IMG/VR virus record: IMGVR_UViG_3300032220_000699
Span: 64,001-128,000 of that record
DNA: 64,000 bases
Direction: 5' to 3' (one strand)
From: a virus
Positions 34,091 to 59,502 of this stretch are shown here, piece by piece (positions within the stretch are counted from its first letter, which is position 1; each line of letters starts with the position of its first letter). The notes below the pieces were generated by a model. It was not told where the DNA came from. It searched no databases and saw nothing but the letters and a program-made list of their open reading frames with translations. The translations under genes were made by a program, and so were the position numbers.

Positions 34091-34166
34091 TGGCCTCCCG
34101 TAGACGGTTCGAACGTCTGACCTGAATCTTAGAAGGATTCTGCTCTTCCAACTGAGCTAACGGGAG
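34091..34166 (-). tRNA. tRNA-Arg(TCT)
   Basis: CTCCCGT/ACGGGAG acceptor stem, GAATC-CTTCTAA-GATTC anticodon arm, TTCGAAC T-loop, CCA. Confidence 0.95.
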
Positions 34167-34621
34167 TTATTTTGAAACGGACTATTCTTACTAATTGTAT
34201 TATGAAATCTAGCAGAACAACTTCTAGAACAAAAAAGATGTTGAACACCCTTTCTAATTCTATTATTTATTTCACCTTGAGTTATATAAAATAAATTTCT
34301 ACAATTATCACATGGAACTATTGTCCATTGTACAACCATAGCGGAATACCACCATTGTTGTTTTAATAAATTCTGCTCTTGCGATAGCAATTGTAGATTA
34401 TTAATATCATCATTAGTTTTATCATCGTCCTTATGATCTACTTCAAAGTCATCAGGAACTTCATATCCAAGTTTAATACCCATAAGGTATCTAGCATAAG
34501 AAATAGTTGTTCTATCTGAATTTGAATTAAACAGATCAACTATTCTTCTATTTTCATTTGATATTCTTAAGTAACCTTTTTTCCATTTACTTCTAAAAGG
34601 TTCTTGTAATTCTATTAACAT
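34157..34621 (-). CDS. HNH endonuclease with C-terminal treble-clef Zn finger
   Basis: EVDHKDDDKTNDDINNLQLL HNH core; CDNC...FCSRSC; stop codon lies in tRNA-Arg nt 8-10. Confidence 0.85.
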   Translation of the reverse strand: MLIELQEPFRSKWKKGYLRISNENRRIVDLFNSNSDRTTISYARYLMGIKLGYEVPDDFEVDHKDDDKTNDDINNLQLLSQEQNLLKQQWWYSAMVVQWTIVPCDNCRNLFYITQGEINNRIRKGVQHLFCSRSCSARFHNTISKNSPFQNNSR

Positions 34622-34676
34622 GCTAATGCTCCAAAAGCTATTGACATGTATTATATATGTTATTGAATAAATCCCA

Positions 34677-34698
34677 TATCCAACTGAGCTATAGGCAC
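34677..34698 (-). pseudogene. orphan 5' fragment of a tRNA-Arg-like gene
   Basis: GTGCCTATAGCTCAGTTGGATA = acceptor 5' strand plus D-arm start; shares TAGCTCAGTTGGA with the downstream tRNA-Arg; no anticodon or T arm. Confidence 0.75.
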
Positions 34699-34737
34699 AC
34701 TTACTCTTTACAAACTATGTTGTTATCTAGTATTTTT

Positions 34738-34944
34738 TTAAAACCTTGGTGGCGGTGAAGGATACATAAACATAACAGAAAGATCCATCATAAATTCTCC
34801 AGGCGCGGGATTATCTACAATCTCAAATCCTGGATCTTTTTTCATTCCCTCAAAAAGTTTTTGAAGTTCAGGGTTACCACAGTTTAAAGAAGCTGATTCC
34901 AGATCACCCATATGTCCACGTGACACTCTGATTTTACCAGTCAT
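34738..34944 (-). CDS. hypothetical protein
   Basis: 68 aa; GGAG RBS. Confidence 0.6.
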   Translation of the reverse strand: MTGKIRVSRGHMGDLESASLNCGNPELQKLFEGMKKDPGFEIVDNPAPGEFMMDLSVMFMYPSPPPRF

Positions 34945-34957
34945 TTATTTTCTCCAG

Positions 34958-35467
34958 TTACTTATTGTGAGAAGTTTTATAGATCATATATTCTAGTTCA
35001 CCTCGGCCTATACGTAAATTATTTTTTGCTAATATTGGTACGTCTTTTCCTTCACCACCAATTTCTTCAAATGTGAAAGATTTAAATTCTTTTATTATTT
35101 CTATCTTTCCTTTTGTCAATGCCACTAAATCAATATAACCGATTCTAACCATTTCAATAGGTCTGATAAACCAATGCTCGTGATTTTTTCTAAAATCAGA
35201 CACAGCAGGTGGTAAGTAAGGTCTATCAGAAGTCATATAAATAGCCGGAGGATTCCAACCATTTTCTTCATTTCTGCATTCGATAATAATATCCATACTG
35301 TAAAGTTGTTTATTGCTAGAAATAGATCTTAAGCAATAAAGTAATTCTGGTGCAACACAAACTCTAGGTATATTACCTTCCTTATTTATGATAGCTGATT
35401 CAGGAAGTTTTGGTCTGAATTTAAAAACAGGACCGTGATCCTTTTTTGAAACATGGTAAAACAACAT
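34958..35467 (-). CDS. hypothetical protein, possible ADP-ribosyltransferase-like fold
   Basis: YHVS at the N-terminus and PRVCVA...CL resemble ART-fold phage proteins; weak inference. Confidence 0.45.
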   Translation of the reverse strand: MLFYHVSKKDHGPVFKFRPKLPESAIINKEGNIPRVCVAPELLYCLRSISSNKQLYSMDIIIECRNEENGWNPPAIYMTSDRPYLPPAVSDFRKNHEHWFIRPIEMVRIGYIDLVALTKGKIEIIKEFKSFTFEEIGGEGKDVPILAKNNLRIGRGELEYMIYKTSHNK

Positions 35468-35517
35468 TTATTTCTCCTAGTAAAAAAAGAAGAGAGGGAT
35501 TTCTCCCTCTCTTCTTC

Positions 35518-35703
35518 CTAGTCGTTTAAAGACTCTTCAATGAACTTCCTGAAGAAAACCTTCTCACTACCGCGTTTCTTTTTCCGCATGAACTTAACGC
35601 GCTTAGGTCCTTTAGGAGCAGGAGTGCAACAAGCACACTTCCAACCACCAGGTCCCAGCTCTTCGCTCTGAATCATACGAATAAAACGTTTTTCACTAAT
35701 CAT
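35518..35703 (-). CDS. small basic protein
   Basis: 61 aa; CACC motif; K/R-rich. Confidence 0.55.
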   Translation of the reverse strand: MISEKRFIRMIQSEELGPGGWKCACCTPAPKGPKRVKFMRKKKRGSEKVFFRKFIEESLND

Positions 35704-35772
35704 GATATTGCTCCTGTTAAGATCAATGGTTCATGATAGCCTCCATTTGGTTATTAAACTACAGGAAAAAGT

Positions 35773-35985
35773 TTACATATTAATCAGATTCCGAAAGGCG
35801 TCGCAAGCCTCCTTCGCTTCCTTCAAACTGCACTCATTATTCTGCTTACGATAAGCACGAATACCAAGCACATGAAGATCACGGCTGACCAGATGCCTCC
35901 AGTCATATTCCAAAATCTCCTTATCAAGAAGATCAAGAGTTTTGTTAACGTGTTTGCGAACTTCCAGAATTTCAGTCAAAGTCAT
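35773..35985 (-). CDS. hypothetical protein
   Basis: 70 aa; IRAYR...SLKEAKEACD resembles a ribosomal L7/L12 C-terminal-like motif seen in phage proteins. Confidence 0.55.
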   Translation of the reverse strand: MTLTEILEVRKHVNKTLDLLDKEILEYDWRHLVSRDLHVLGIRAYRKQNNECSLKEAKEACDAFRNLINM

Positions 35986-36044
35986 GATTGTTCCTAAGAA
36001 CTATGGCAACATTACCATAGATTATTCATGACAATCTCCTTATG

Positions 36045-36281
36045 TTAGTTAATGGTTCTAGGCGTTCCTATTTTGTCAAGAACACTACAAGCAGCCTCAA
36101 CACATTCTGTCGGAGACTTATTATTTTTATGTGCATCAAGAAGAGCATGTTTAGCCTCTTCTATACGAGCACACATTTCTCTAATAAAGGCAGCCTTTTC
36201 AGCCTGAGACATGCCTTGTAATTTTTGTTTAACCTTTTCTAACTCTGCGTCAAGATCAGGTATAGGTGGAAATTCAATCAT
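36045..36281 (-). CDS. hypothetical protein
   Basis: 78 aa, helical. Confidence 0.6.
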   Translation of the reverse strand: MIEFPPIPDLDAELEKVKQKLQGMSQAEKAAFIREMCARIEEAKHALLDAHKNNKSPTECVEAACSVLDKIGTPRTIN

Positions 36282-36283
36282 GC

Positions 36284-36598
36284 TTAATAAAGGTTTTCAG
36301 AGTACAGAGTACCACCATTAGCGGTATCCCCACCACAGCGATAAACAATTTGCCCAGCGGCCTCTGCAACTTTCCAAGCCTCTGTGCGAGACATGAAGAC
36401 ACCCCACTGATCGATAAACCCTTGATCATCGTAATCATGAAAGTCAAGATCAAGACACAGACGAACATGCATTCGCATGACATCATCCATATGACGAGGT
36501 CCTAAAACAATACGACCTGTTTTACTTGAACGACATGCTGCGCAGACAACACGACGTTGTTTTGTTAATTCATCTTTAGTACATCCATCTGCAAACAT
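36284..36598 (-). CDS. hypothetical phage protein
   Basis: From MFADG; VVCAAC...RH...QGFIDQWGVFMSRTEA. Confidence 0.65.
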   Translation of the reverse strand: MFADGCTKDELTKQRRVVCAACRSSKTGRIVLGPRHMDDVMRMHVRLCLDLDFHDYDDQGFIDQWGVFMSRTEAWKVAEAAGQIVYRCGGDTANGGTLYSENLY

Positions 36599-36599
36599 T

Positions 36600-37259
36600 T
36601 TATACCTCTGACAGTTTCTTCTGCCTGTAGAAATTATAAGCAGAATAGAATTCAACATAGAAATCTCTTAATTTCAATATATGACTATCATTAGGATTTT
36701 CTAATGCAAGTTCTTGATATTGTTTATACCGAGAACAAACATCTTCATAGGTAAGCTCACCAGCTTTGTGCTTGAGAGCATAAAGATACATCTCTGGATC
36801 TTTAAGTGAACGTTCTGATGCTTTTTCTTGAGCCATCGATATTCTGACAGTGTCAAGAATATTTAATAAAAGAGCAGGTTTGATTTTCTTGATAATGTCT
36901 TTGCAAACAATAAGACATTTTTTAGCTTCTTCAATTTCTTCTTCATCAAAACCCATTGCTTCAAACATACGGTTCTGAAGAATTTGTAATGGATAAGTAT
37001 TGTATGTAACATTGTTCTTGTTACAGTAAATAGAAATGATCTCAATATAAACCTTTAAAGAACTTACAAAGGACTGGTTATTACCAGCACCATCTTTAAA
37101 GATAAACATCCCTTCTCCATCTACTTCAACTTCCCCTGTTTCAAGTAGACGATCAAGTGCTTTCTCAAAAGGAAGAAAGGAGTTCATTTGTGTCACGAGA
37201 CTAGGATAACGAATATCTCTAGGCACGTATTTCTTTTTTGGTTTCTTATTGTTTGCCAT
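36600..37259 (-). CDS. hypothetical protein
   Basis: 219 aa. Confidence 0.7.
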   Translation of the reverse strand: MANNKKPKKKYVPRDIRYPSLVTQMNSFLPFEKALDRLLETGEVEVDGEGMFIFKDGAGNNQSFVSSLKVYIEIISIYCNKNNVTYNTYPLQILQNRMFEAMGFDEEEIEEAKKCLIVCKDIIKKIKPALLLNILDTVRISMAQEKASERSLKDPEMYLYALKHKAGELTYEDVCSRYKQYQELALENPNDSHILKLRDFYVEFYSAYNFYRQKKLSEV

Positions 37260-37261
37260 GA

Positions 37262-37654
37262 TTATTGATTTTTAAAGTCAATAACAACAAAAACAGTTTG
37301 AATAATTTCAACATCATCAGCAGACTGAATAGCTGAACAAAATTCTGGTTTTGATTTCTTACCAGGAAACAATTTTGTTACTTCTCGTGTGACAACATGA
37401 AATGAATGAACAACATCTTTCACAATACCAGCTGTAACATGATTATGAAAAATAATATTATCTTTATGATCGGAATGAACATTCTTAAAAATAAGATCGA
37501 ATAGGTTCATTTTTAATTTTATTGTTTCACCGATCTGAGGTATCTGACCAACTTCAATTTCACAACCACGTCGAATTTCAGTTGAGTCAGTATTACTATC
37601 ACCGTATAAACATGGAATAATTTTCACTTTAATCTCCTTATTAATTACAATCAT
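37262..37654 (-). CDS. hypothetical protein
   Basis: 130 aa; promoter motif at 37655. Confidence 0.6.
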   Translation of the reverse strand: MIVINKEIKVKIIPCLYGDSNTDSTEIRRGCEIEVGQIPQIGETIKLKMNLFDLIFKNVHSDHKDNIIFHNHVTAGIVKDVVHSFHVVTREVTKLFPGKKSKPEFCSAIQSADDVEIIQTVFVVIDFKNQ

Positions 37655-37719
37655 TATATATGGTAATGTTTTTTATTCTAATGCAAAAAAAAGAAGGACC
37701 CAAAGGTCCTTCTTCTTAT

Positions 37720-38118
37720 TTATGCAGCTTTATCACACATAACGCCAGAGCGATTACCCTTAGCAGGAGATGCAAGCATCCGCATAAAGTCCAGAAGACG
37801 CCAGCAGTCATCTGGATTGGTAATATCGATCAGACGAATTTCATGTGACCGAGACACACGAACAGCCAAACGAATACCAACATACTCGTTATTCTTGGTA
37901 AAGGCACGCAGAGTGTATTTGGTGCCTTCGACATTCGTAAACTGATGAACATTGTGACCCTGTTCCCAGGTTTCAAAACCAAGAGTTTCAAGAGGTTTTT
38001 CAAGACGCTCAATGAACGGCTTGATTGCTTCCGCATGGTGATCAGCATTGCGTTTGGTACCAACAATACCAAGACCATTTGCACGAAGAGGGATGATGTT
38101 AGTTTGAGGTTTTTTCAT
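37720..38118 (-). CDS. hypothetical protein
   Basis: 132 aa; ends at a terminator. Confidence 0.7.
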   Translation of the reverse strand: MKKPQTNIIPLRANGLGIVGTKRNADHHAEAIKPFIERLEKPLETLGFETWEQGHNVHQFTNVEGTKYTLRAFTKNNEYVGIRLAVRVSRSHEIRLIDITNPDDCWRLLDFMRMLASPAKGNRSGVMCDKAA

Positions 38119-38217
38119 TTTGTTGCCTTTCTGACGTTCAACGTCGAGTGGGTGCTACTATTAAAATGACCGCTAGGGTCGTTAACACTGGAGCATAAAC
38201 TCTCAGTGGTACTACAA

Positions 38218-39213
38218 CTACAATGTTGCTACTTCTGCTTTATAAGGACGTGAGTAGGTTTTGTTGAGATAGTCAATAAGTTCATCAACTGTTCCAATAT
38301 ACATCTTTTCAATATGATGCAACTTGATATAATCATCGACAGTTTTTAGAATGCCGTCAGGGAAAGCTTCACGAGGTGCAACTTCATGAGGCATGACAGA
38401 GCTTGAAGAAACAAGATCATTAGGAAGATATCCCACACCGATGCAGTAATCATCAGTGAAGAAGAAAACTTCATTGTTCCTGATGCAAGTGATTGTCTGA
38501 CCTTTATCGACTTTCTCTTGCATCTCTTCCTTAGTCAGAACACCCTTGATCTGCTTACCACTCTTAGCAAGCAGTTTTGACATGTGGGAATTGTTTAACA
38601 GTGTTTCCTTATCGAAAACAAAGTCAACCGAATAATCACGTTGATCGATATGATAGTTCATTGCTAAATGATCATTATAGTCTTCTTCCCAGTCCCTTGT
38701 CATTTCATCCAGTGCATCACCCATCTGGTCACATGAGTCATCATGTTCACAGATATAATTGATGTAGCTTACAGCTTTCAGACAAGCGTCCAGGATGTAA
38801 GCTTTGATCTGCCGCTCACTCAAGTATGTCCTGGGACCTTCCTGGTTATAATTGGTGTAGACCGACTCGTAACGATAATCGTTCTTGGGGTCAAGATGAA
38901 GCTGAATGCCACCGTAACGATGATTAAGCTTACGCTTACAGATGATACCAGATTCAACCTGCTTCCAAATTTCCTTGAAAGCGAATTCAGCAAAGCCAGG
39001 TTTACTGGCACCTTCCATCATGGCAGCAAAGCCACCTTTAGCCTTGCGTTGCTCATGATAATGCCGACGAATGTTTTCTTCATCAGGTTTATAACCCATG
39101 AGATAAACATACGCAGCACCTGCGATTGTACGACCAACTTCCGTGTCATTGATCTGCCAAACTTTCTTACCTACACGGAAATTATTCATCAGCCACGACA
39201 TTGTTCTTTGCAT
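38218..39213 (-). CDS. hypothetical protein
   Basis: 331 aa. Confidence 0.72.
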   Translation of the reverse strand: MQRTMSWLMNNFRVGKKVWQINDTEVGRTIAGAAYVYLMGYKPDEENIRRHYHEQRKAKGGFAAMMEGASKPGFAEFAFKEIWKQVESGIICKRKLNHRYGGIQLHLDPKNDYRYESVYTNYNQEGPRTYLSERQIKAYILDACLKAVSYINYICEHDDSCDQMGDALDEMTRDWEEDYNDHLAMNYHIDQRDYSVDFVFDKETLLNNSHMSKLLAKSGKQIKGVLTKEEMQEKVDKGQTITCIRNNEVFFFTDDYCIGVGYLPNDLVSSSSVMPHEVAPREAFPDGILKTVDDYIKLHHIEKMYIGTVDELIDYLNKTYSRPYKAEVATL

Positions 39214-39215
39214 TT

Positions 39216-39746
39216 TTAAATCTCCTTATTGGGATTATCGATCCAATTAATCGCTTCTTCGACAGTGTGGAATCCATCTTTAGCTACCTGTTTGGTATCC
39301 GGTTTATGGAACACACAGACATGGTTTTGACAACCACCCATGGAAATACCTGCTGTTGAAACACTGACCAGATACTCTTTATAGTAGAACTGACAGAGAG
39401 CATCGATCGGAAGATATCCAGACTGTGCGTCACCGATGATATGGAAATCACGAATCTGAAGCATGTCCTTGTGTTCATAAGGTCCCGGCATCGGACAAGG
39501 ACGAAGGTATTTCCAACCTTTGGTATCGACATAAATACCAGTACCGACATTACCTGAATGACTCCAGCGTTGAACACCAGGGTTCCATTGAAGAACAACT
39601 ACTTCGTGCTCACGCCCATCAAAATCGATGTGTTGCACCCAGTGGTGACCACCAAGTCGAGAATGATGACCGGGAGGTTTCGGTTCAACCTGAATTTGTT
39701 CTTTAATCATTTCTATACTCCTTAAGGAATTGAAGATATCCATCAA
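39216..39746 (-). CDS. hypothetical protein
   Basis: 176 aa; promoter motif at 39751. Confidence 0.68.
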   Translation of the reverse strand: MMDIFNSLRSIEMIKEQIQVEPKPPGHHSRLGGHHWVQHIDFDGREHEVVVLQWNPGVQRWSHSGNVGTGIYVDTKGWKYLRPCPMPGPYEHKDMLQIRDFHIIGDAQSGYLPIDALCQFYYKEYLVSVSTAGISMGGCQNHVCVFHKPDTKQVAKDGFHTVEEAINWIDNPNKEI

Positions 39747-39812
39747 CTTTTATATATGCAATCAATTTAATTTCAAATGAAAAAAAAAAAGAAGAGGGAT
39801 TACTCCCTCTTC

Positions 39813-40808
39813 TTATGCCGCTAACAATGTTCCGTTGGTAACACCAACTTCACCAATGTTTGCATTAATATAAGCACCGCGACCTTTCCTACGTTCAGGA
39901 AGAAGTTTAGGTTCAAGGTAATCGACTTCAGAAACAATCAATTCCTTTAATGCCTTATCCTGAGTAATACCGAAGAAGTTAGCTTCTCGCAACAGATCTT
40001 CTTCATTACCAGACTTGACATACATAGCGACCATGAAAAGTTGGTCCAGCATCGGGGTATCTACCGCATATACACAAAGATTTGCGATATGAATCCCTGT
40101 CTTAGTAAATAGTTCTAAACCGAAAGGTGTTCCATGTCCTGGTCTTTCAGTTCTTTCAATGATATTGTTATATCTTCTCTTGGTGAGTACAAACTTAAAC
40201 AAAGAGTCTGGATGACTAACTTCGATCTCATCACCTTTAAGAAAGATTTTAGTATCTTCTTCCATACCAAAGTTATCAAGAAGTTTCAAGGCTCGTTTGA
40301 TAGAGTTCTTAACAGGCTTCCTGACTTCTCGTGGTGTAGATTTTCCACAGACTACTCTTCCTGTTGTATAAACAGGAACACATGGATTACCATTGTAATA
40401 AACAAAGTTACCATTATCCGTTTGATAAACAGCTAATGTTGTCTGTGTTATACAAGTCCCAGTAGTGCTAGCTGTTCCTTCTTGGAAGTAAGGCCATGTT
40501 ACTGAACTTGTTGATGTCGCGGATGTATTAACCCAGATTCTATTCGTTTGAATTTGGTCTGGACCAATTGTTCTATCAGTAATATAGATACCTGTGGCAT
40601 TCGTATAAATACGTGTAGTTCCATTTGCCGGTAACTGTATAGATGTATTATTGGGTAAAGCTATTAAGCCTGTGTTTGGTGTTGCTGGTACCGGATCAGG
40701 CTCAATAACTGGAACAGGAAGATCAGGAATCTCATCAGGAAAGATATTAGCTAGTAACATCGATTGTGTTATTTCTGCTTCCCGTTCCGCAAGCCTAAGG
40801 AAAGACAT
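39813..40808 (-). CDS. hypothetical protein with P/T-rich N-terminal half
   Basis: 331 aa; coupled to the upstream 146-aa ORF. Confidence 0.7.
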   Translation of the reverse strand: MSFLRLAEREAEITQSMLLANIFPDEIPDLPVPVIEPDPVPATPNTGLIALPNNTSIQLPANGTTRIYTNATGIYITDRTIGPDQIQTNRIWVNTSATSTSSVTWPYFQEGTASTTGTCITQTTLAVYQTDNGNFVYYNGNPCVPVYTTGRVVCGKSTPREVRKPVKNSIKRALKLLDNFGMEEDTKIFLKGDEIEVSHPDSLFKFVLTKRRYNNIIERTERPGHGTPFGLELFTKTGIHIANLCVYAVDTPMLDQLFMVAMYVKSGNEEDLLREANFFGITQDKALKELIVSEVDYLEPKLLPERRKGRGAYINANIGEVGVTNGTLLAA

Positions 40809-41248
40809 TACCCGCCACGAATAGGTTTCATAGCAACAGAGTTAGACTCAACAACTTCTTCAGCTGTCTTTGCCTTCTTCATTGCTTGTAGATCCTTACC
40901 TTTCTTGATCTTACCTACACGCGCTTTATCATTCTTAACAAGTGTCGCAAGATCAGCATCATCAAAATCAGCCATCATTTTTTCGAACTGTTCGTCGGTA
41001 ATGATGATATCTTCAAGTTTACCACGGCGAAGATCTCGTTCGGTAACTTCACCTTTACGTTTAATCTGACCGAATAGATACTTCTTGGTTGTGAAGAAAA
41101 CATAACCTTCTTTCATCTTACGACGAATAACCTCAAGGATATGTTCTTTATTCTGTTCATCCCATTGTATAGTAAGATCTCCCAGCATTCCTAAGAATGT
41201 ACAGGAAAAAGTTTGTTCAGTTACAGTGTTTTCAAGAACAGCTTCCAT
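40808..41248 (-). CDS. hypothetical protein
   Basis: 146 aa; GGAG RBS. Confidence 0.7.
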   Translation of the reverse strand: MEAVLENTVTEQTFSCTFLGMLGDLTIQWDEQNKEHILEVIRRKMKEGYVFFTTKKYLFGQIKRKGEVTERDLRRGKLEDIIITDEQFEKMMADFDDADLATLVKNDKARVGKIKKGKDLQAMKKAKTAEEVVESNSVAMKPIRGG

Positions 41249-41263
41249 GAATTTCTCCAGTTT

Positions 41264-41680: not shown

Positions 41681-41681
41681 A

Positions 41682-42465: not shown

Positions 42466-42474
42466 AATTCCTCA

Positions 42475-48689: not shown

Positions 48690-49010
48690 TACAACTAGTA
48701 GGCGAAAGGATACTTGGCAGTACACTTTCGGCTACTACTCTGAATTCTATCCAGAGCACTAGATTTAACACCGATAGTCAGATGGGCCTTATCCGACAAT
48801 GGCGCCGGTTGCTTCTCACTGCGGCTAAACGGTTTCCAAAGAAAGGATACCAACGCGGCTAGAGAAACAGCTTCAAGTCCAATTGAGTTTACCCAACACT
48901 CAAAAGTTCCTGCGTACAGTTTATGACTGGGTTGTCAAACTTGTATAGGACGCGCGCTTTACACTGTTAGTTAGCGGACGAACATTTGGCAAACAGCATG
49001 GAGCTATAAG
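48690..49010 (-). ncRNA. candidate ~320-nt structured ncRNA
   Basis: ORF-free, GC-richer than its flanks, directly behind promoter motif 49019; several helices. Confidence 0.55.
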
Positions 49011-49131: not shown

Positions 49132-49174
49132 ATTACGTTACTCTTTTCAAATAATACTGGAAACTAGTAACTTT

Positions 49175-49642
49175 TTAATATGGTTTAGGAATAGGTCCAA
49201 AAACCTCAAAGATTTCTAGGGCTTGACTATTACCTTCGTAGGCCCAGTAATTCATATTGTTAACTTGTAACCATTTTCTATTAGGTTCAGTGTCATCCCG
49301 GCATTCAGCAGGGAAGAAAGGACCATTTGTTCCTTTGCTACAAACCCAATAATAATGATTAGCTATTAACTGATTATTAGAAGTGATCTTCTCGAAATGA
49401 AGATTGTTTTTCTCCGGATCTCGAGATTTCAATAAAGCTTCGATCTGGTCAACCAAAGCTATGCGTTTATTGAGTTCTTCATCATTATCCAAAATAAATG
49501 GATATTGTTTATCTTTATACCAAACTGACAACTTCACACTGTTATCAGAGTAGTACAATGCATGTGCTTTATTTTCACCAGGAGGAAGTCGTCTGTGCAA
49601 TTCTTGTAGAACTACACCAATAGAAGTTGACATTGTAGTCAT
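49175..49642 (-). CDS. hypothetical protein
   Basis: 155 aa. Confidence 0.65.
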   Translation of the reverse strand: MTTMSTSIGVVLQELHRRLPPGENKAHALYYSDNSVKLSVWYKDKQYPFILDNDEELNKRIALVDQIEALLKSRDPEKNNLHFEKITSNNQLIANHYYWVCSKGTNGPFFPAECRDDTEPNRKWLQVNNMNYWAYEGNSQALEIFEVFGPIPKPY

Positions 49643-51179: not shown

Positions 51180-51188
51180 AACTTTCTC

Positions 51189-51434: not shown

Positions 51435-51481
51435 TTATTATCTCCTATCATATAGACAGTTATTATATATGTAGGTAAAAA

Positions 51482-51889: not shown

Positions 51890-51916
51890 CGCTAAATCTT
51901 TCTTTAAACTAATTAA

Positions 51917-52483: not shown

Positions 52484-52563
52484 GATGTACTCCTAGCATT
52501 AATCAATTTATTTTGTTAAATATAAAAAAAGAAAAGAGACTACCATATGGTAGTCTCTTATTT

Positions 52564-53613: not shown

Positions 53614-53741
53614 GTTTCGTCCTCAATAAGTTTCAACCGATGTGACAAATATTTTTTATTCAATCAAAGCCAATTATTATATGTATAGTTATAACTGATT
53701 CAAAAACAAATAAGACTGGAGGGTAACCTCCAGTCTTATCA

Positions 53742-54236
53742 TTACCAATTTTCTAAACTCTTTTTATCTTTGATCATCTCTTCTAATTTATCAAGAGCTT
53801 GTAATTTATCAGGTATATATTCTTTATCTGACGCAGAGTTAATTTTTTCACGTGCATTTTTCATAGTTTCCCATGAATAAGGCACAGCGTCTCCTTCTGA
53901 ATCATGTTTAGAATCATCTTTACGTACATATTCAGCAGTAACCCAGATATCTGTACTACCTTTATAAAGTTTAGCTCTTTCAGGTTTATCAAACTCAAAT
54001 TCATGAGTAATCTCTAATCCAATAGGTTTTACATTTTTAATAAGAATACCAACTTCTTCTAAACATTCTTTAATAGCCGTATTGATAAGATCATCGCCAT
54101 TATCAAATCCACCGCCAGGAAAAATATATGAAGAAAATTTACCTTTAATATATTTCTTACAAAGAAGAATAGAGTTACCATTTGTGATAATAACTCTAAC
54201 ACATTTTCGAAGTGTTCTTGTATCTTGTTCCGACAT
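53742..54236 (-). CDS. Nudix hydrolase
   Basis: FPGGGFDNGDDLINTAIKECLEEVG Nudix box; start refined to MSEQ. Confidence 0.85.
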   Translation of the reverse strand: MSEQDTRTLRKCVRVIITNGNSILLCKKYIKGKFSSYIFPGGGFDNGDDLINTAIKECLEEVGILIKNVKPIGLEITHEFEFDKPERAKLYKGSTDIWVTAEYVRKDDSKHDSEGDAVPYSWETMKNAREKINSASDKEYIPDKLQALDKLEEMIKDKKSLENW

Positions 54237-54247
54237 ATTAACCTCAG

Positions 54248-55621
54248 TTAAGAATTTACTTTTATTAAGAACCAAAGGACAGGAAGCAAATAAAGCTGAT
54301 GAAGTAAACTAAACTCCATATACTTTTCAATAGCAATAACTAGATCTTCTTTAGCAATAGCTTGTTTAGTCACATGCTTAAAGATTAAAAGTTCAATATA
54401 ACTCAGATTAGCAAAGGTGGAATTATCTGTTATATAGTTATAAAAGTTTTCAGATACTACATAGTAGTCATCTAAGAATAATTCATGTAAAAGATGCTGA
54501 TTAAAAACAGCATTATTATTGACAGCCTGGATAGGAATAACAGGAACAAAATAGTTCTTAGTCGACTTAACTGACTCAATAAAGGAATTCAGTTCAGCGT
54601 CAGGAGCAATTTCATCTATATTTACAGACGTATTAGGTTCCACAGGAAAATTAATGTAGTCAGCACCTGTGTGAAATACAGTCCCAAGCCTAGCTCTATT
54701 CGGAAGCATATGACTTGGTATAAAATTATAACGTTTATTAATACCGCTGATAGTATTAATATTTCTGGTAAATAATAAGTCAAATATGGATTTTTGGTTA
54801 ATGTACTTATTATCACCGTAATTGTGCCTAAAGAATGGAACATCTGCTAACTCACGATAGTCAATGATCTTAGAGAGAAAACCTAATAACAAAGGATCAT
54901 AGACTTTGTAAGGTAATCCAGGAATAAGAATAGTACCAGCTTCTTTTTGCGCAAACGTGGAGAAGTAGTAATCCTTAGATTCCTGTGTTAAAACTCTAAG
55001 ACGATCAATAGCTTCTTTAACAGACGGCTTTATAAGCACATCACGATTAAAGTAGTTTGTATCTTTGTTAAAGAAATAAGAATCCTGGATACGTGCTTTA
55101 AGACTAGCAATGAAATCAGGTTCTTCTGATGTATAGTAAAGAAGATTATAATTAATTTCGTAAATAGAATCTTTACGGAATGTTTTACGAACAACACTGT
55201 TAACCATGAAGACAGCATCTTCACCAGAGTCAACAGGTGCAATGAAGATATCACCTACATTAGGTGTTAAACTATAAGGACTTAGCGCTGATCCAGTAAC
55301 AGTAGTGATACCTGTAGCGGCATCATAACTACTAGATAACGGAGAAGAAACTTGAATAACCATACCGTTAACTTCATAGTAAGGTTGATTCAGGTTAGGA
55401 ACACTCGGATCAAAGTTCTCAAGTGTATTATTCTTATTTAGAATTTGTCCATAGAAGTTAACAGTCCAAGGATAACCTTCAACATACTTCAATAAAGATG
55501 TAATTTTAGATTCAGGTACCAAGGTTGTAAATATAGATTTAGATGGTTCTTGAATTGCCTGTGGCAGTGTTTGTTCTGCCGCAACCGGTGGTTGGTCAGG
55601 TTGTAATCTAACTAAGCCCAT
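54248..55621 (-). CDS. phiKZ-like virion structural protein
   Basis: From MGLVRL; LLKYVEGYPWTVNFY and PNVGDIFIA segments typical of the family (recollection). Confidence 0.6.
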   Translation of the reverse strand: MGLVRLQPDQPPVAAEQTLPQAIQEPSKSIFTTLVPESKITSLLKYVEGYPWTVNFYGQILNKNNTLENFDPSVPNLNQPYYEVNGMVIQVSSPLSSSYDAATGITTVTGSALSPYSLTPNVGDIFIAPVDSGEDAVFMVNSVVRKTFRKDSIYEINYNLLYYTSEEPDFIASLKARIQDSYFFNKDTNYFNRDVLIKPSVKEAIDRLRVLTQESKDYYFSTFAQKEAGTILIPGLPYKVYDPLLLGFLSKIIDYRELADVPFFRHNYGDNKYINQKSIFDLLFTRNINTISGINKRYNFIPSHMLPNRARLGTVFHTGADYINFPVEPNTSVNIDEIAPDAELNSFIESVKSTKNYFVPVIPIQAVNNNAVFNQHLLHELFLDDYYVVSENFYNYITDNSTFANLSYIELLIFKHVTKQAIAKEDLVIAIEKYMEFSLLHQLYLLPVLWFLIKVNS

Positions 55622-55702
55622 GATTGTTCCTTTATATAGAGTCAAATCATTTTTAAACAAAAAAAAAAACACCTACCCCCTGTTTGGGATAGGTGCTCTT
55701 TA

Positions 55703-56224
55703 TCAGTTCACAGTCTTACTGACAGGAACAGTTGCGCTGCTATCCATCATATCAGCTTGAAGTGTGTGAGCAAGATTATCAATGAACTGATCAAACCCAC
55801 CAGCATCTTGAATCATTTCATCAACTTTCTCATGGTTAATTGTGATAATACCTGGTTCATTAGGAATAGTAAAACCATCCCACCAGTGACCACAATAATC
55901 CATAGCAGCTTGCAACACTTCTCGAATATCCTTAATTCTGATCTGACCATTCTTATGTTCGATCAAACCAGATATTTCAGGATGAGCCATTTGATTATAA
56001 ACCCTAGCGTGTTGCAAAGGCTTAATCCAACGGAACAATTCATGCTGACCAAAATTGATCGATGTTTTTTCTTCTTTCTCCATCATGGTGACCATGAGTA
56101 TATCATCAACGATACTTTGCCGAAGTTCCTCATCCGACATATTGTTGATGCTGAAGATATTATTATGAACAACGCTAAACATCAAAACGTCATTCATTGT
56201 TTCTTCAATACTTCTTTTAAACAT
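55703..56224 (-). CDS. hypothetical protein
   Basis: 173 aa. Confidence 0.65.
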   Translation of the reverse strand: MFKRSIEETMNDVLMFSVVHNNIFSINNMSDEELRQSIVDDILMVTMMEKEEKTSINFGQHELFRWIKPLQHARVYNQMAHPEISGLIEHKNGQIRIKDIREVLQAAMDYCGHWWDGFTIPNEPGIITINHEKVDEMIQDAGGFDQFIDNLAHTLQADMMDSSATVPVSKTVN

Positions 56225-56232
56225 GTCAGCTC

Positions 56233-56838
56233 CTAGCAGACGTATTTAACTTTCTGAGATTGATGAATTTCTTCCAACCGTTTACAGTGCGGTGTGTTGA
56301 CAGTATAGAAAGAATCTTTCTTGACCCGTTGCATGAAGGCTTCTACAGAAAAAGCAATATCATCCGGAGAAAAGTACTGACCGTTAGCCATCATGTAATG
56401 ATGACTATTTTCTTCATCATCGGAATCACCGCTGTAAGTACCCTTGAAGTATTCACCGAAAGTCAGTTCGATATATTCCACCCAAACAGTTTCATTGTTC
56501 AGATGGAACAAACCCCAGCTATGAGACAGAACAACAATGTCTTCATTTTCCAGTTTTACCTGGATACTGTTACTGGTTTTCAGAATGTTCAGGATATCAG
56601 TCATAGATTTCATCAAGAAATCATTCTTATTTATTTCGAAATTCTTGAACGGCACCCATTCTTTTTTCTGTTGATCACGATAATGGGTGTTGGAAATACC
56701 ATTATCATACCAATCAACAGCATTAACAGAACCACCGCCATAACCGGCAGCTGCGAAAGCTTTGTCGATGGTTTCGCCATAGATATGAGACTTCGAACCA
56801 TCCAGCCAGTAGACGGTAAACCATTGATTCCTATCCAT
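56233..56838 (-). CDS. hypothetical protein
   Basis: 201 aa; GGAG RBS. Confidence 0.7.
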   Translation of the reverse strand: MDRNQWFTVYWLDGSKSHIYGETIDKAFAAAGYGGGSVNAVDWYDNGISNTHYRDQQKKEWVPFKNFEINKNDFLMKSMTDILNILKTSNSIQVKLENEDIVVLSHSWGLFHLNNETVWVEYIELTFGEYFKGTYSGDSDDEENSHHYMMANGQYFSPDDIAFSVEAFMQRVKKDSFYTVNTPHCKRLEEIHQSQKVKYVC

Positions 56839-56897
56839 TTGTTTCTCCTAATAACTTAATAATTTAAAAAAACAAGAGACCCGAAGGTCTCTTATTC

Positions 56898-57134
56898 TTA
56901 GAAGTGGATAACCACTTGTTCTTCTTCAACAACCGGTTCCCATTTGAAAGGGAGATCTGCTGACGTCAAACCGTCGAGCGGAGTATGGATGGTCAGGTAA
57001 ATTTTACCTGTACCTTCTTTACCGTTGTTAAACACAGAAAACGGTTCCATCTCTTTGCCAGCAAAAACAGCATCGATGATGGTGTCAGATTTTTCACGAA
57101 CAGACAATTGTTTTTGCCCTTGAATCAGTTCCAT
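56898..57134 (-). CDS. hypothetical protein
   Basis: From MELIQ; promoter motif at 57210. Confidence 0.6.
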   Translation of the reverse strand: MELIQGQKQLSVREKSDTIIDAVFAGKEMEPFSVFNNGKEGTGKIYLTIHTPLDGLTSADLPFKWEPVVEEEQVVIHF

Positions 57135-57272
57135 TTTTTTAACTCCTTTGTCCTTTTGGTGGAATAGTTTAAAGTAAGGACATAAACTTTGAACTATATA
57201 GTCAGATTTTATATATGTAACCAAACATTTTTCAAACACAGCTAGCAGGGATTTCTCCCTGCTAGTTTTTTA

Positions 57273-58070
57273 TTACTGAAACTCGTGTTTGTGTTTAGCC
57301 CAAAGGTCATTAATTTCTTCATCATCAAAACCAATAAAGAAGTTAACAGGCGCTACACCGTGCATTAATACTTCTAATACACTATTAGGTTGAATAGTAA
57401 GCGAGGTTTGTTCAGGCACTATCTGAACATCTACCATAGATAAGAAATTTTTATTTTGTTCAGTATTATACTTATGCCCAGTAATAAGTGATTTAATTAC
57501 ATCGTTCTTAAAATGGGTAAGTTCAATAGAAAATTGTTCTGTTAATTGCGGCGATACACCATTAGGCATCGCCTGAGTTTTAATCTTTTCAACAGTGTAA
57601 TCAAACAACTGTTGAGCAAATTCTTTTTGTCTAATAGGATTATAAATAGTTGTCAAACACTCTATTACTCTATCTTTTTCAACAAGAGTTGGATATTCAA
57701 AAAAGTTTGTCTTTGGTTCAGTGATAGGAATAACTGCCTGTGTAACTGTACCAAGTTCTTTAGCAACTTCCATATACTTCAGAACTTTTCTCTTCTTGGC
57801 TTCAATCTTGTCACGATTGTCAATTCCGAAAAGAGGAACACCGGCTTCTTGAAGAAGTTCAACACAAGCTTTCAGATCAATTAGCTCATTAACAAGCATC
57901 TCGATCTTAGTCAATCCAGTTGCAGGATCAACATCAGTAAAGCCAAAACGAAGAGCTTTGTGAAGATCTTTCGAAAGCTTAAGAGATACCTTACCAAGTT
58001 CAAAAGCTAGTTCAGCAACTTCACCAGCTTCTTCAGATGTACAAACAGTCAGATGGTTAATTGGTGTCAT
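57273..58070 (-). CDS. MazG-like NTP pyrophosphohydrolase domain fused to unknown C-terminal domain
   Basis: SEEAGEVAE...ELIDL EExxE/ExxD acidic motif in the first ~100 aa. Confidence 0.65.
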   Translation of the reverse strand: MTPINHLTVCTSEEAGEVAELAFELGKVSLKLSKDLHKALRFGFTDVDPATGLTKIEMLVNELIDLKACVELLQEAGVPLFGIDNRDKIEAKKRKVLKYMEVAKELGTVTQAVIPITEPKTNFFEYPTLVEKDRVIECLTTIYNPIRQKEFAQQLFDYTVEKIKTQAMPNGVSPQLTEQFSIELTHFKNDVIKSLITGHKYNTEQNKNFLSMVDVQIVPEQTSLTIQPNSVLEVLMHGVAPVNFFIGFDDEEINDLWAKHKHEFQ

Positions 58071-58257
58071 TTTTTTCTTTCAGTTTCCAGTTACAGTTTT
58101 CATTATCCCAGACATAGTCATCATTATTACCTTTAAACCCGAAAGTATATTCCTTCAAACCTAATGCATCACAGGCACCTTGAAAGGAAGTGGCATTGAT
58201 GACATGGCGTTTACCATTGCTGGAATAAATGGTAAACGCCTCAAATTTAACTTGCAT
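58057..58257 (-). CDS. hypothetical protein
   Basis: 66 aa, coupled to neighbours. Confidence 0.58.
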   Translation of the reverse strand: MQVKFEAFTIYSSNGKRHVINATSFQGACDALGLKEYTFGFKGNNDDYVWDNENCNWKLKEKNDTN

Positions 58258-58664
58258 TAGTGAATAGGGTTGATATAAGCTTCATCAGTGTTAGGATTAA
58301 CCGTAACATGAATAGACTTAGCATTGGACATAAGTTCTTTCACATGGTCGGTATCTTCGATTGCTTCATAAGCAAACTTAAGGATATCACCATTAAGCAG
58401 AGCTTCTTCAATCTTCTCTTTGTCGATAGAGAAGTGAATACTCAACAAAATATAAAGCGTCATATGGAATATCTTATCACTACGACGATACAACGTATGG
58501 TACATATTCTTATGTTGATCGAAGAATGCATTCATAGGTTCTGAATTTTCAGGTGAACCATACATATCACGATTAGTTTTGTTACGGATATAGTCATTCA
58601 GTAAATAGATCTTGGCACTGTCGTCCACATATTCAGCATCAATATGAGCTGTAGGGTGAGTCAT
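58257..58664 (-). CDS. hypothetical protein
   Basis: From MTHPTA (GGAG RBS); the longer track start overlaps tRNA-Tyr and is rejected. Confidence 0.65.
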   Translation of the reverse strand: MTHPTAHIDAEYVDDSAKIYLLNDYIRNKTNRDMYGSPENSEPMNAFFDQHKNMYHTLYRRSDKIFHMTLYILLSIHFSIDKEKIEEALLNGDILKFAYEAIEDTDHVKELMSNAKSIHVTVNPNTDEAYINPIH

Positions 58665-58694
58665 TTTATTCTCCTTGGTGGTGAAAGATGAAAA

Positions 58695-58726
58695 AGTATA
58701 GACAGAGGTTAACCTCTGTCTATACT
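58695..58726. terminator. strong hairpin terminator after tRNA-Tyr
   Basis: Perfect palindrome AGTATAGACAGAGGTTAACCTCTGTCTATACT flanked by A- and T-tracts. Confidence 0.8.
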
Positions 58727-58736
58727 CTTTTAGTTG

Positions 58737-58821
58737 TGGTGGACCGGGCATGATTCGAACATGCGAAGCACGAGGCGTCAGATTTACAGTCTGATGGGTT
58801 TGACCGCTCCCCAACCAGTCC
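58737..58821 (-). tRNA. tRNA-Tyr(GTA)
   Basis: TCAGA-CTGTAAA-TCTGA anticodon arm, long variable arm, CCA. Confidence 0.93.
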
Positions 58822-58838
58822 AGAGTACTACAAATGTT

Positions 58839-58926
58839 TGGCGGAGGCGGTGAGATTCAAACTCACGAAGGGTTTCCCCTTGCTGGTTTTCAAGACCAGT
58901 GCAATCGATCGCTCTGCCACACCTCC
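58839..58926 (-). tRNA. tRNA-Ser(TGA)
   Basis: GGAGGTG/CGCCTCC acceptor stem, CTGGT-CTTGAAA-ACCAG, long variable arm, G73, CCA. Confidence 0.93.
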
Positions 58927-58927
58927 T

Positions 58928-59413
58928 TTAATCTTTATATTTAGTTCCATGCTGTCCATATTGATTTGCAGCATTGTATTTGGATCTACAAGATCTGCTA
59001 CAGCATAAATCATCTGTAACTTTTATTCTGTCTTTATACTCACTGTCTGAAAGATAAAACAATTCATTACAGTAAGAACAAGGTAATATATGATAGTTAA
59101 GCAATTCTTCAAACTGCTTCAACTCATATTTCTTTTTGTTTTCCTCAGATGTAAGAACCTGAAGATTATTAATATCATCGTTGGTTTTATCATCGTCCTT
59201 ATGATCTACTTCTTCATCAGGAGTTAATAAACGATCAAGTTTATCTTCCATCATTACTCTTGATAGAGCTTTAGACGGAGTGTTACCTTTTTCAAAATAG
59301 ATGACGCATCTTTTCCTACCATCCTTACTTTCATAAGGACCTAAGATGTTTTTGCATCCATATAGCTTCTTCAGCTTTTCTTTGTCAAATGGTATATCTG
59401 TTTCTTTCGACAT
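58928..59413 (-). CDS. HNH endonuclease with C-terminal treble-clef Zn finger (paralog of 34157..34621)
   Basis: EVDHKDDDKTNDDINNLQVL; CSYC...CCSRSC; stop codon 1 nt before tRNA-Ser. Confidence 0.85.
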   Translation of the reverse strand: MSKETDIPFDKEKLKKLYGCKNILGPYESKDGRKRCVIYFEKGNTPSKALSRVMMEDKLDRLLTPDEEVDHKDDDKTNDDINNLQVLTSEENKKKYELKQFEELLNYHILPCSYCNELFYLSDSEYKDRIKVTDDLCCSRSCRSKYNAANQYGQHGTKYKD

Positions 59414-59473
59414 AATGATACTAACTGTATTGCGACAATTAATATATATGTCATTAATTAGTATTCTATTGGA

Positions 59474-59502
59474 GGTGCTTTCAACCGCTCAGCCAAACCT
59501 CC
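59474..59502 (-). pseudogene. orphan 5' fragment of a tRNA-Ser gene
   Basis: GGAGGTTTGGCTGAGCGGTTGAAAGCACC; 22/29 identical to the 5' end of the downstream tRNA-Ser; stops at the anticodon stem. Confidence 0.85.

What the first reader, a model, noticed from the sequence alone, without database searches (positions are those of the whole stretch)
34091..59502. Two independent copies of a 'tRNA-replacing' HNH cassette (candidate new mobile element family)
Seen: two related HNH/Zn-finger genes 25 kb apart share the core VDHKDDDKTNDDINNLQ. Both sit in the same order on the minus strand: orphan 5' fragment of tRNA-X, ~20 nt, phage promoter motif, HNH ORF, then a complete but diverged tRNA of the same amino acid abutting or overlapping the HNH stop (X = Arg at 34091-34698; X = Ser at 58839-59502). 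Established: free-standing homing endonucleases occur in phage tRNA regions (e.g. T4 SegB), and integrative elements often restore tRNA 3' ends. Inference: these are intron-less homing cassettes that cut a resident tRNA gene in the D-arm/anticodon region and bring their own promoter plus a whole, cleavage-resistant replacement tRNA, leaving the old 5' end as a scar. That would let the element hitch-hike on, and swap, tRNA alleles. I do not recall this architecture being described, but cannot search.
Basis: partly seen in the sequence, partly recalled or inferred. Interest (0 to 1): 0.88.

Follow-up and report, generated by a model that had tools for sequence, protein, structure and literature searches.

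The report
tRNA-gene-invading HNH homing endonuclease cassettes
Two selfish HNH nuclease genes in a phiKZ-like jumbo phage each sit inside what used to be a phage tRNA gene, leaving its first 22 or 29 bases as a scar and being followed by a different, complete copy of the same tRNA, which shows how such nucleases can turn over phage tRNA genes.

Summary
Each locus reads, on the minus strand: 5' tRNA fragment, the phage's own promoter motif, an HNH_3/zinc-finger ORF, then a complete tRNA with the same anticodon.

Relatives without the HNH carry an intact tRNA-Arg(UCU) (L034, L035) or tRNA-Ser(UGA) (L028, L038) exactly where the scar begins. The scars match those resident alleles at 21/22 and 27/29 bases, but the tRNA behind their own HNH at only 16/22 and 22/29. 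Other relatives carry the same filled alleles (L036, L026) or decayed versions (L032, L025).

The link to tRNA genes is a property of the family. Of 34 viral loci matching across the HNH and zinc finger, 33 have a same-strand tRNA or tRNA fragment within 600 nt. None of 20 loci matching only the HNH core does. Fragment ends cluster at tRNA positions 21-22 or 29-33, with 3' parts starting at 31-48. In three contigs a complete tRNA-Ile plus HNH lies between the two halves of a split tRNA.

Limits: replacement is not universal (Serratia phage Totoro and L039 simply lose tRNA-Tyr), and cleavage was not tested. T4 SegB and the phage T5 HNH enzymes are precedents, so I rate this a new variant of a known kind.

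The parts
34701..34743 (-). Conserved element upstream of the Arg locus (AAAAAATACTAGATAAC..ATAGTTTGTAAAG). It anchors synteny with the relatives.
   Evidence: Aligned in the window, L032, L034, L035 and L036 directly before the tRNA or the scar.
34677..34698 (-). Scar: the first 22 nt (acceptor strand through D-loop, to about position 21) of a resident tRNA-Arg(UCU) allele.
   Evidence: 21/22 identical to the intact tRNA-Arg(tct) of empty allele L034 and 18/22 to L035, but 16/22 to the tRNA-Arg behind its own HNH. Second-best non-tRNA hit of the genome-wide 5'-half scan. Ends at position 21 of a full-length tRNA profile.
34622..34676 (-). Spacer with the phage promoter motif (CATATATA at 34659-34652) and the ribosome-binding region.
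   Evidence: 53/55 identical to L036, while the flanks are 71-72% identical. The motif occurs 36 times on the minus strand and 4 times on the plus strand of the genome, upstream of ORFs and of tRNA-Leu.
34157..34621 (-). HNH_3 + Zn-finger homing endonuclease gene (154 aa, PHROG 14913). It lacks the C-terminal helix-turn-helix-like tail of its L036 orthologue.
   Evidence: Pfam PF13392 at 5.8e-10 and PF06467 at 8.9e-07. phrog_14913 at 2.6e-38. 68% identical to the 188-aa L036 orthologue, which continues for about 35 aa more.
34392..34444 (-). 53-nt HNH-core tract that is nearly identical to the Ser copy (59160-59212). Probably gene conversion between the two paralogues.
   Evidence: 86-91% DNA identity here against 20-57% elsewhere, and higher than to the L036 orthologue (72-77%). 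A contig of run X4 that carries the Arg-copy flanks aligns to the Ser copy only over this tract.
34091..34166 (-). Complete tRNA-Arg(UCU), a different allele (acceptor CTCCCGT/ACGGGAG). It overlaps the HNH stop codon by 10 nt.
   Evidence: ARAGORN. Rfam tRNA at 48.8 bits. 71% identical to the L034 allele and 66% to the tRNA in the orthologous L036 cassette.
59474..59502 (-). Scar: the first 29 nt (to the start of the anticodon stem) of the resident tRNA-Ser(UGA).
   Evidence: 27/29 identical to the intact tRNA-Ser of empty allele L028 and 22/29 to the tRNA-Ser behind its own HNH. Best non-tRNA hit of the genome-wide scan. The same scar is present in L026.
59414..59473 (-). Spacer with the promoter motif (CATATATA at 59450-59443).
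   Evidence: 88% identical to L026.
58928..59413 (-). HNH_3 + Zn-finger homing endonuclease gene (161 aa, PHROG 14913).
   Evidence: PF13392 at 7.3e-08. phrog_14913 at 2.7e-22. Orthologue in L026 at 86% DNA identity. An identical allele is present in contigs of three further studies.
58839..58926 (-). Complete tRNA-Ser(UGA), a replacement allele with G7:C66 and A19:U56.
   Evidence: ARAGORN and Rfam at 51.1 bits. 86% identical to the L028 allele, which has T7:A66 and G19:C56. 74% identical to the L026 cassette tRNA.
58737..58821 (-). Resident neighbour tRNA-Tyr(GUA), not part of the cassette. It serves as a control for normal tRNA conservation.
   Evidence: 95% identical to the tRNA-Tyr of L028.

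Best explanation
Both loci are free-standing HNH-Zn-finger homing endonuclease cassettes that landed inside resident phage tRNA genes: tRNA-Arg(UCU) near position 22 and tRNA-Ser(UGA) at position 29/30.

Shown by comparison:
- HNH-less relatives have one intact tRNA at the scar position.
- Filled alleles keep only its first 22 or 29 nt. After that come a spacer with the lineage's promoter, the HNH ORF, and a complete tRNA of the same anticodon from a different sequence lineage. That tRNA abuts or overlaps the stop codon.

Inferred:
- In mixed infections the nuclease nicks or cuts HNH-less tRNA alleles in the D-arm to anticodon-arm region.
- Repair copies the HNH together with the adjacent tRNA from the donor.
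- The first capture at a new site used tRNA homology on one side and an illegitimate join on the other. That would leave the stub of the old gene, whose end then marks the break.
- The adjacent tRNA is needed by the phage and must escape the nuclease. This would explain why it is the fastest-changing segment.
- RNase P processing of that tRNA probably trims the HNH mRNA, as proposed for T4 segB. At the Arg locus this would remove the stop codon.
For: - Empty alleles: L034 and L035 for Arg, L028 and L038 for Ser. Scar identities are 21/22 and 27/29 to the resident alleles against 16/22 and 22/29 to the tRNA behind the same HNH.
- The replacement tRNA-Ser has co-varying G7:C66 and A19:U56, whereas L028 has T7:A66 and G19:C56. 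Its 5' and 3' parts therefore belong together.
- No relative has two tRNA-Arg(tct) genes.
- Filled orthologues: L036 and L026.
- Decayed forms: L032 keeps a cassette-type tRNA and about 12 nt resembling the ORF end. L025 has a 37-nt insert at the same 29/30 breakpoint.
- Patchy distribution: the empty allele L034 is closer to the window (SGNH gene 85%) than the filled L036 is (71%). Yet the Arg spacer is 96% identical between the window and L036.
- The HNH-adjacent tRNA is the least conserved segment (66% and 74%), while tRNA-Tyr is 95% identical.
- Family level: 33/34 against 0/20 tRNA association. Fragment ends cluster. A tRNA-Ile plus HNH sits inside split tRNAs in L057, L067 and L074.
- Totoro against Kodama: the HNH replaces tRNA-Tyr from position 28 to its 3' end.
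- Precedent: SegB recognises tRNA-gene DNA, and its stop codon lies at the tRNA-Arg processing site (PMC2330249).
Against: - No enzymology: neither target site nor strand was tested.
- The cassette tRNAs of the window and L036 share little beyond the acceptor stem (66%), so HNH and tRNA were not inherited as one fixed unit.
- The window's Arg HNH lacks the C-terminal tail of its orthologue and may be inactive.
- Some empty Ser alleles (L038, L039) also have G7:C66, so that pair alone does not mark a foreign allele.
- In Totoro, L039, L013 and L009 the family destroys or splits a tRNA without replacing it.
- No empty-allele joint was seen in four metagenome runs.
- All relatives are metagenomic contigs of mosaic phages, so the order of events is inferred.
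Confidence: 0.75

Rival explanations
1. The HNH inserts into and destroys a tRNA gene, but the complete cognate tRNA behind it is not part of the mobile unit. It was acquired or restored separately by recombination, and only such restored genomes persist because the phage needs that tRNA.
For: - Replacement is absent in Totoro, L039, L013 and L009.
- The window and L036 have orthologous HNH and spacer but tRNAs only 66% identical, with a changed ORF end.
- The window's tRNA-Arg is closest to the HNH-less L035 allele (79%).
Against: - Two independent loci in one genome show the same layout with exact abutment.
- L057, L067 and L074 have a tRNA plus HNH enclosed together by the halves of a split tRNA.
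- L032 keeps a cassette-type tRNA with a remnant resembling the ORF end.
Confidence: 0.2
2. The nuclease has no preference for tRNA. tRNA clusters are simply dispensable, recombination-prone regions where any selfish nuclease gene accumulates. The fragments are by-products of recombination between similar tRNA genes.
For: - Several different HNH types occupy these loci in relatives: 196 aa in L024 and L025, 189 aa after tRNA-Leu in L036, 190 aa in L039, and a 267-aa gene in contigs of a 77% relative.
- Totoro's downstream tRNA is a chimera of two neighbouring tRNAs.
Against: - The association is specific to the family: 33/34 loci matching across HNH and Zn finger, against 0/20 loci matching only the HNH core.
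- Junctions fall at recurrent tRNA positions (21-22, 29-33) in unrelated phages.
- The ORF abuts the tRNA at -38 to +11 nt in many lineages.
Confidence: 0.1
3. The arrangement is functional RNA biology rather than a scar. Either the HNH region acts as an intron-like insert with the tRNA halves rejoined, or the 5' fragment is a processing or regulatory element for the HNH transcript.
For: - Insertions sit where tRNA introns sit, in the anticodon arm.
- In split cases the halves keep complementary acceptor strands.
- The Ser scar plus the next 3 nt can form a 6-bp hairpin.
Against: - The acceptor strand of each window scar does not match the 3' strand of the downstream tRNA. GTGCCTA does not pair with ACGGGAG at all, and the Ser scar mismatches at position 7.
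- The insert is almost all ORF, leaving no room for a group I core, and Rfam finds nothing there.
- The Ser scar evolves at the same rate as its neighbours (90% against 86-88%).
Confidence: 0.03

Closest known systems
T4 SegB, a free-standing GIY-YIG homing endonuclease in the T4 tRNA cluster (PMC2330249; PMC13096335)
   Same: - It sits among phage tRNA genes and cleaves inside tRNA genes by recognising conserved tRNA-gene sequence.
- It carries neighbouring tRNA genes along by co-conversion.
- Its ORF ends at the 5' processing site of a tRNA-Arg, so tRNA maturation is thought to cut between the last codon and the stop codon.
- It has its own promoter.
   Different: - It has a GIY-YIG fold, not HNH.
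- It recognises the T-psi-C arm, whereas the breakpoints here lie in the D-arm and anticodon arm.
- It is described as intergenic. No leftover stub of a target tRNA and no same-anticodon replacement tRNA has been described for it.
Phage T5 F-TflI/II/IV, and HNH genes next to tRNA arrays in mycobacteriophages and cyanobacteria (cited in PMC2330249, PMC6409571, PMC8421152)
   Same: They are HNH-type nucleases encoded inside or beside tRNA gene clusters. They have been proposed to spread or diversify tRNA sets and to be down-regulated by tRNA transcript processing.
   Different: - No phage T5 record appeared among the 40 tblastn matches, so homology to this family is not shown.
- The papers read here report neighbourhood only, not insertion inside tRNA genes, scars or allele replacement.
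tRNA-targeting integrative elements (tyrosine-integrase islands and prophages)
   Same: They insert into a tRNA gene and carry a copy of part of it, so a working tRNA is restored and a partial duplicate is left at the other end.
   Different: - They use an integrase and a short identical att core and usually duplicate the 3' end.
- Here there is no integrase, a diverged whole tRNA is carried, a 5' stub is left, and the context is a virulent-type jumbo phage.
Group I introns with homing endonucleases in bacterial tRNA anticodon loops
   Same: A nuclease gene sits in the anticodon region of a tRNA gene.
   Different: There is no ribozyme and no sign of splicing here. Function is kept, where it is kept, by a second tRNA copy.
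The 'tRNA-Stop interrupted by ~2.5 kb' noted in the N4-like Vibrio phage pVa5 (PMC5746245)
   Same: A phage tRNA gene is interrupted by ORF-containing DNA. N4-like phages are among the tblastn hits of this HNH family.
   Different: It is a single unexplained remark that its authors flagged as a possible artefact. No nuclease link was drawn. I did not examine that genome.

Membership tests
HNH_3 (PF13392) / PHROG 14913 HNH-Zn-finger endonucleases | Significant match to the family profiles. | tested here: met
   PF13392 at 5.8e-10 and 7.3e-08, both above the curated cut-off. PF06467 zf-FCS at 8.9e-07 for the Arg copy. phrog_14913 at 2.6e-38 and 2.7e-22.
HNH_3 (PF13392) / PHROG 14913 HNH-Zn-finger endonucleases | Catalytic His/Asn motif and Cys4 zinc finger intact. 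| tested here: met
   Columns D62, H63, N70, N75, L76, C104, C107, C131 and C135 are invariant across six homologues and are present in both window copies.
Free-standing homing endonuclease gene | Presence/absence polymorphism at the same site in related genomes. | tested here: met
   Arg: L034 and L035 empty, L036 and the window filled. Ser: L028 and L038 empty, L026 and the window filled. Totoro filled against Kodama and Moabite empty.
Free-standing homing endonuclease gene | Site-specific cleavage of the empty allele and resistance of the filled allele. | not testable with these tools
   Needs purified protein and DNA substrates. The only indirect sign is that fragment ends cluster at tRNA positions 21-22 and 29-33.
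Free-standing homing endonuclease gene | Co-conversion of flanking markers, or a distribution that disagrees with the phylogeny of the flanks. | tested here: inconclusive
   The filled L036 is more distant (SGNH gene 71%) than the empty L034 (85%), and the spacer is 96% identical. Phage mosaicism and selection on the spacer could give the same picture.
SegB-like (Seg family) | GIY-YIG catalytic domain. | tested here: not met
   Only HNH_3 and zf-FCS are found. The resemblance to SegB is functional, not one of family membership.
tRNA group I intron with endonuclease | A ribozyme core flanking the ORF. | tested here: not met
   Permissive Rfam scans of both loci find only the complete tRNAs. Only 55-60 nt of non-coding spacer is available.

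The most novel reading that the evidence does not exclude
PHROG 14913 HNH-Zn-finger genes form a widespread family whose homing site is the tRNA gene as such, in the anticodon arm or D-arm. The conserved tRNA sequence would serve as a portable landing pad. The element would move as a tRNA-plus-nuclease composite between different tRNA genes and between unrelated phages (phiKZ-like, Saclayvirus, Moabitevirus, T4-like and others). It would destroy, split or replace the target. This would make it a main driver of the fast turnover of phage tRNA alleles, which matter for escape from tRNA-cutting host defences.
Probability: 0.45. Interest if true: 0.8.

Novelty: new variant of a known kind. Interest (0 to 1): 0.66.

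Why it matters
Phage tRNA genes are now known to counter host defences that cut tRNAs (van den Berg et al. 2023, Azam et al. 2024 and Burman et al. 2024, as cited in PMC12846349; SegB-driven tRNA-Tyr amplification, PMC13096335). How their repertoires and alleles change so quickly is still open.

These loci give a concrete, sequence-level picture. A nuclease family lands inside tRNA genes. It either kills them or swaps in another allele. The tRNA next to it becomes the most variable segment of the region.

The idea can be tested directly. There are defined substrate pairs: the L034 and L028 alleles against the cassette alleles. There is also a cultured phage pair on one host, Totoro and Kodama.

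It also matters for annotation. Stubs of 22-30 nt and split tRNAs are invisible to tRNA finders.

Tried and rejected
- Near-identity DNA searches of the phage collection with both loci found nothing useful.
- Single-protein scans of viral contigs with either HNH, the 600-aa virion protein or the 169-aa neighbour found no relatives. Relatives came only from the large protein database plus contig look-ups.
- Scar 21-mer: no exact match in viral contigs. The one metagenome match was a bacterial tRNA-Lys and was uninformative.
- Contigs of relatives of the 169-aa gene could not be read as DNA. Their gene maps only show other HNH genes at the site.
- The genome search could not reach the ENA or Logan contigs.
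- LucasX has no close relative in the phage collection, so its scar could not be checked. Relatives of Aeromonas phage Aszh-1 align in many pieces and I did not resolve them.
- Laying contigs of four runs on the Ser locus showed the filled allele in several studies but no joint that skips the HNH. Contigs cannot show absence.
- I tried to derive L025's 37-nt insert from the window cassette by alignment. The result was not convincing, so I call it only consistent with a deletion derivative.
- No PDB relative was found by sequence. I did not fold the protein because the family assignment is not in doubt.
- An intron or split-tRNA reading was considered and rejected. See the rival explanations.

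Full report
**What the window is.** The window is bases 64001-128000 of a 189-kb viral contig rated 94% complete. The phage is related to phiKZ-like jumbo phages. Relatives encode phiKZ-type internal head proteins just upstream of the Ser locus. The nearest GenBank match of the 600-aa virion protein is Bacillus phage AgentSmith at 45%. The whole genome has only six tRNA genes and a tmRNA, all in this window.

**The observation.** Both loci are as described, on the minus strand.
- Arg locus: 22-nt 5' tRNA fragment (34698-34677), CATATATA motif (34659-34652), 154-aa HNH_3 + zf-FCS ORF (34621-34157), and tRNA-Arg(tct) (34166-34091). The TAG stop lies inside the tRNA.
- Ser locus: 29-nt fragment (59502-59474), motif (59450-59443), 161-aa HNH_3 ORF (59413-58928), tRNA-Ser(tga) one base after the stop (58926-58839), then tRNA-Tyr.
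- The two proteins are 39% identical. They are the only homologues in the genome.
- A profile of tRNA 5' halves, run over the whole genome, ranks the two fragments as the two best hits outside real tRNAs. Each lies 55-60 nt upstream of an HNH start.
- The motif is a genuine lineage promoter signal. It occurs 36 times on the coding (minus) strand against 4 on the other, in front of ORFs and of tRNA-Leu.

**Empty and filled alleles at the Ser locus.** Relatives were found through the virion protein and their contigs were fetched.
- L028 (74% relative) and L038 (73%) have no HNH. Behind the same 64-aa ORF they have tRNA-Ser(tga) and then tRNA-Tyr.
- The window scar matches the first 29 nt of L028's tRNA-Ser at 27/29. 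It matches the tRNA-Ser behind its own HNH at 22/29.
- The complete tRNA-Ser of the window differs from L028 by paired changes: G7:C66 against T7:A66, and A19:U56 against G19:C56. It is 86% identical overall, while the neighbouring tRNA-Tyr is 95% identical. Its two ends therefore belong together. It is not a new 5' part joined to the old 3' part.
- L026 (86% relative) has the same scar, spacer and 161-aa HNH, followed by a tRNA-Ser that is only 74% identical to the window's.
- L025 (94% relative) has a decayed tRNA-Ser with a 37-nt insert at exactly the 29/30 breakpoint, followed by a different 196-aa HNH. L024 has only that HNH.
- L039 (64% relative) keeps tRNA-Ser. Its tRNA-Tyr is cut off in the T-loop and followed by a 190-aa HNH, with no replacement.

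**Empty and filled alleles at the Arg locus.** Relatives were found through the SGNH esterase gene downstream. All share a conserved element directly upstream of the tRNA or the scar.
- L034 is empty. It has tRNA-Arg(tct) with acceptor GTGCCTG, then tRNA-Pro. The window scar matches it at 21/22. This settles that the scar is an Arg(UCU) gene start.
- L035 is empty and carries another allele.
- L036 is filled. It has the same scar type, a spacer 53/55 identical to the window's, a 188-aa orthologous HNH (68% identical) and a tRNA-Arg(tct) that abuts the stop.
- L032 has no HNH. It keeps a tRNA-Arg of the L036 type, preceded by a promoter-like remnant and about 12 nt that resemble the end of the L036 ORF.
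- No relative has two tRNA-Arg(tct) genes.
- The flanks of the window and L036 are 71-72% identical. The empty L034 is closer to the window (SGNH gene 85%) than L036 is. The filled state therefore does not follow the flanks.

**What changes fastest.** Between orthologous filled alleles, the tRNA next to the HNH is the least conserved piece. It is 66% identical at the Arg locus and 74% at the Ser locus, against 75-96% (Arg locus) and 86-90% (Ser locus) for the scar, spacer and HNH beside it.
- The window's Arg HNH has lost the C-terminal tail, which looks like a helix-turn-helix and is present in L036, LucasX, Totoro and Aszh-1. The loss lies just where its tRNA differs.
- A 53-nt stretch of the HNH core is 86-91% identical between the two window copies. 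That is more than to the Arg orthologue (72-77%).

**The family.** Homologues in GenBank phages abut tRNAs: CRR8 (tRNA-Phe), LucasX (tRNA-Thr, with a 5' stub upstream) and Totoro.
- Totoro has close relatives without the HNH. In Kodama and Moabite the site holds an intact tRNA-Tyr. Totoro keeps only its first 27 nt, and the HNH replaces the rest up to the 3' end. No other copy of that tRNA-Tyr is detectable in Totoro. The tRNA downstream is a resident neighbour.
- Two scans of viral contigs gave 12 and 59 loci.
- Of 34 loci that match across the HNH and the zinc finger, 33 have a same-strand tRNA or fragment within 600 nt. Of 20 that match only the HNH core, none does. This is an internal control.
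- With a full-length tRNA profile, upstream stubs end at positions 21-22 or 29-33, and downstream stubs start at 31-48.
- All three layouts occur: stub-HNH-complete tRNA, complete tRNA-HNH-stub, and stub-HNH-stub with complementary acceptor strands.
- In L057, L067 and L074 a complete tRNA-Ile(tat) plus the HNH lies between the two halves of one split tRNA. This is the most direct sign that a tRNA can travel with the nuclease.

**Mechanism.**
- Shown: insertion inside resident tRNA genes, a same-anticodon tRNA of another lineage behind the HNH, patchy distribution, and decay products.
- Inferred: the nuclease cuts HNH-less tRNA alleles in the D-arm to anticodon-arm region, and repair copies HNH plus tRNA. 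The first capture joined the broken left end to donor DNA without homology, so the end of the stub marks the break. The adjacent tRNA must both work and escape cutting, which would explain its turnover through paired changes.
- The overlap of the stop codon with tRNA-Arg mirrors T4 segB, where tRNA processing is thought to cut between the last codon and the stop codon.

**Comparison with what is known.** SegB recognises the T-psi-C motif of tRNA genes and drives inheritance of the T4 tRNA region. It can also amplify tRNA-Tyr against a defence system. HNH genes near tRNA arrays have been noted in phage T5, mycobacteriophages and cyanobacteria. My searches found no description of stubs, of split tRNAs caused by this family, or of same-anticodon replacement. 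The only trace was a single remark on an interrupted tRNA in an N4-like phage. I therefore class this as a new variant of a known kind. Its enzymology is untested, and its claim of a new element family is reduced.

Noticed in passing
window 32161-32639 (-): The phage encodes a tmRNA. It is scored both as permuted tmRNA (RF04321, 102 bits) and as beta-proteobacterial tmRNA (RF01850, 96 bits), with tag AANDAQFAPQLKLAA. The same tmRNA lies downstream of the Arg locus in L032 and L033. It could act on the stop-less HNH mRNA expected after RNase P processing at 34166.
   Followed up: partly
window 48690-49010 (-): An ORF-free, comparatively GC-rich stretch of about 320 nt lies between tRNA-Asn and tRNA-Met. 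It starts just after a CATATATA promoter motif (49026). No Rfam family reached its gathering score. L035 has a comparable stretch of about 280 nt after its tRNA-Arg that ends in a T-arm-like sequence.
   Followed up: no
window 34701-34743, 59503-59535 and about 49135-49175 (-): A second conserved element (AAAAA-TACTAG-...-TAGTTTG/ATTGG-AAA) directly precedes the Arg and Ser scars and tRNA-Asn, and is shared with the relatives. It may be a tRNA-specific promoter or a terminator-promoter unit.
   Followed up: partly
window-wide; genome C1: The CATATATA(A/T)T motif is strongly strand-biased (36 minus, 4 plus). It often has TTGAAA about 14 nt upstream and lies 20-40 nt before start codons. It looks like the main promoter class of this phage.
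   Followed up: partly
L057, L067, L074 (about 480-640 and 950-1080): A complete tRNA-Ile(tat) plus HNH is inserted in the anticodon arm of another tRNA. In L057 and L067 both junctions carry an imperfect direct repeat, T(T/A)TTTAAATAA. This may be a duplicated anticodon-loop target.
   Followed up: partly
L021 (Kodama) about 1575-1680; L008 (Totoro) 3110-3186: Kodama has an unannotated tRNA-like gene between tRNA-Tyr and tRNA-Ser. Totoro's annotated tRNA-Ser(gct) carries that gene's 5' acceptor strand fused to the tRNA-Ser body, and the resulting acceptor stem looks mismatched.
   Followed up: partly
L006 (Acinetobacter phage CRR8) 2340-2436: Where relatives have a normal tRNA-Arg(TCT), CRR8 has an odd tRNA-like sequence. 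It keeps the same anticodon arm and a T-arm with CCA end, but it has no normal D-arm and is not called by ARAGORN. It lies just upstream of the HNH.
   Followed up: no
L036 4081-4650; L025 7156-7746; L039 4682-5254: Further, different HNH genes (189, 196 and 190 aa) occupy tRNA-adjacent positions in relatives of this phage. Several nuclease lineages therefore compete for the same tRNA loci.
   Followed up: partly
genome C1 9430-9448 (-), outside the window: A T-arm-like fragment (TGCTGGTTCGAATCCGAAC, E 0.16 against the 3'-half tRNA profile) lies far from any tRNA gene. It may be another tRNA remnant.
   Followed up: no
window 33647-34069 (-): The gene downstream of tRNA-Arg encodes a small SGNH/GDSL-type esterase. 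It is widespread among metagenomic proteins, with 694 hits, many named lysophospholipase L1-like esterase.
   Followed up: no
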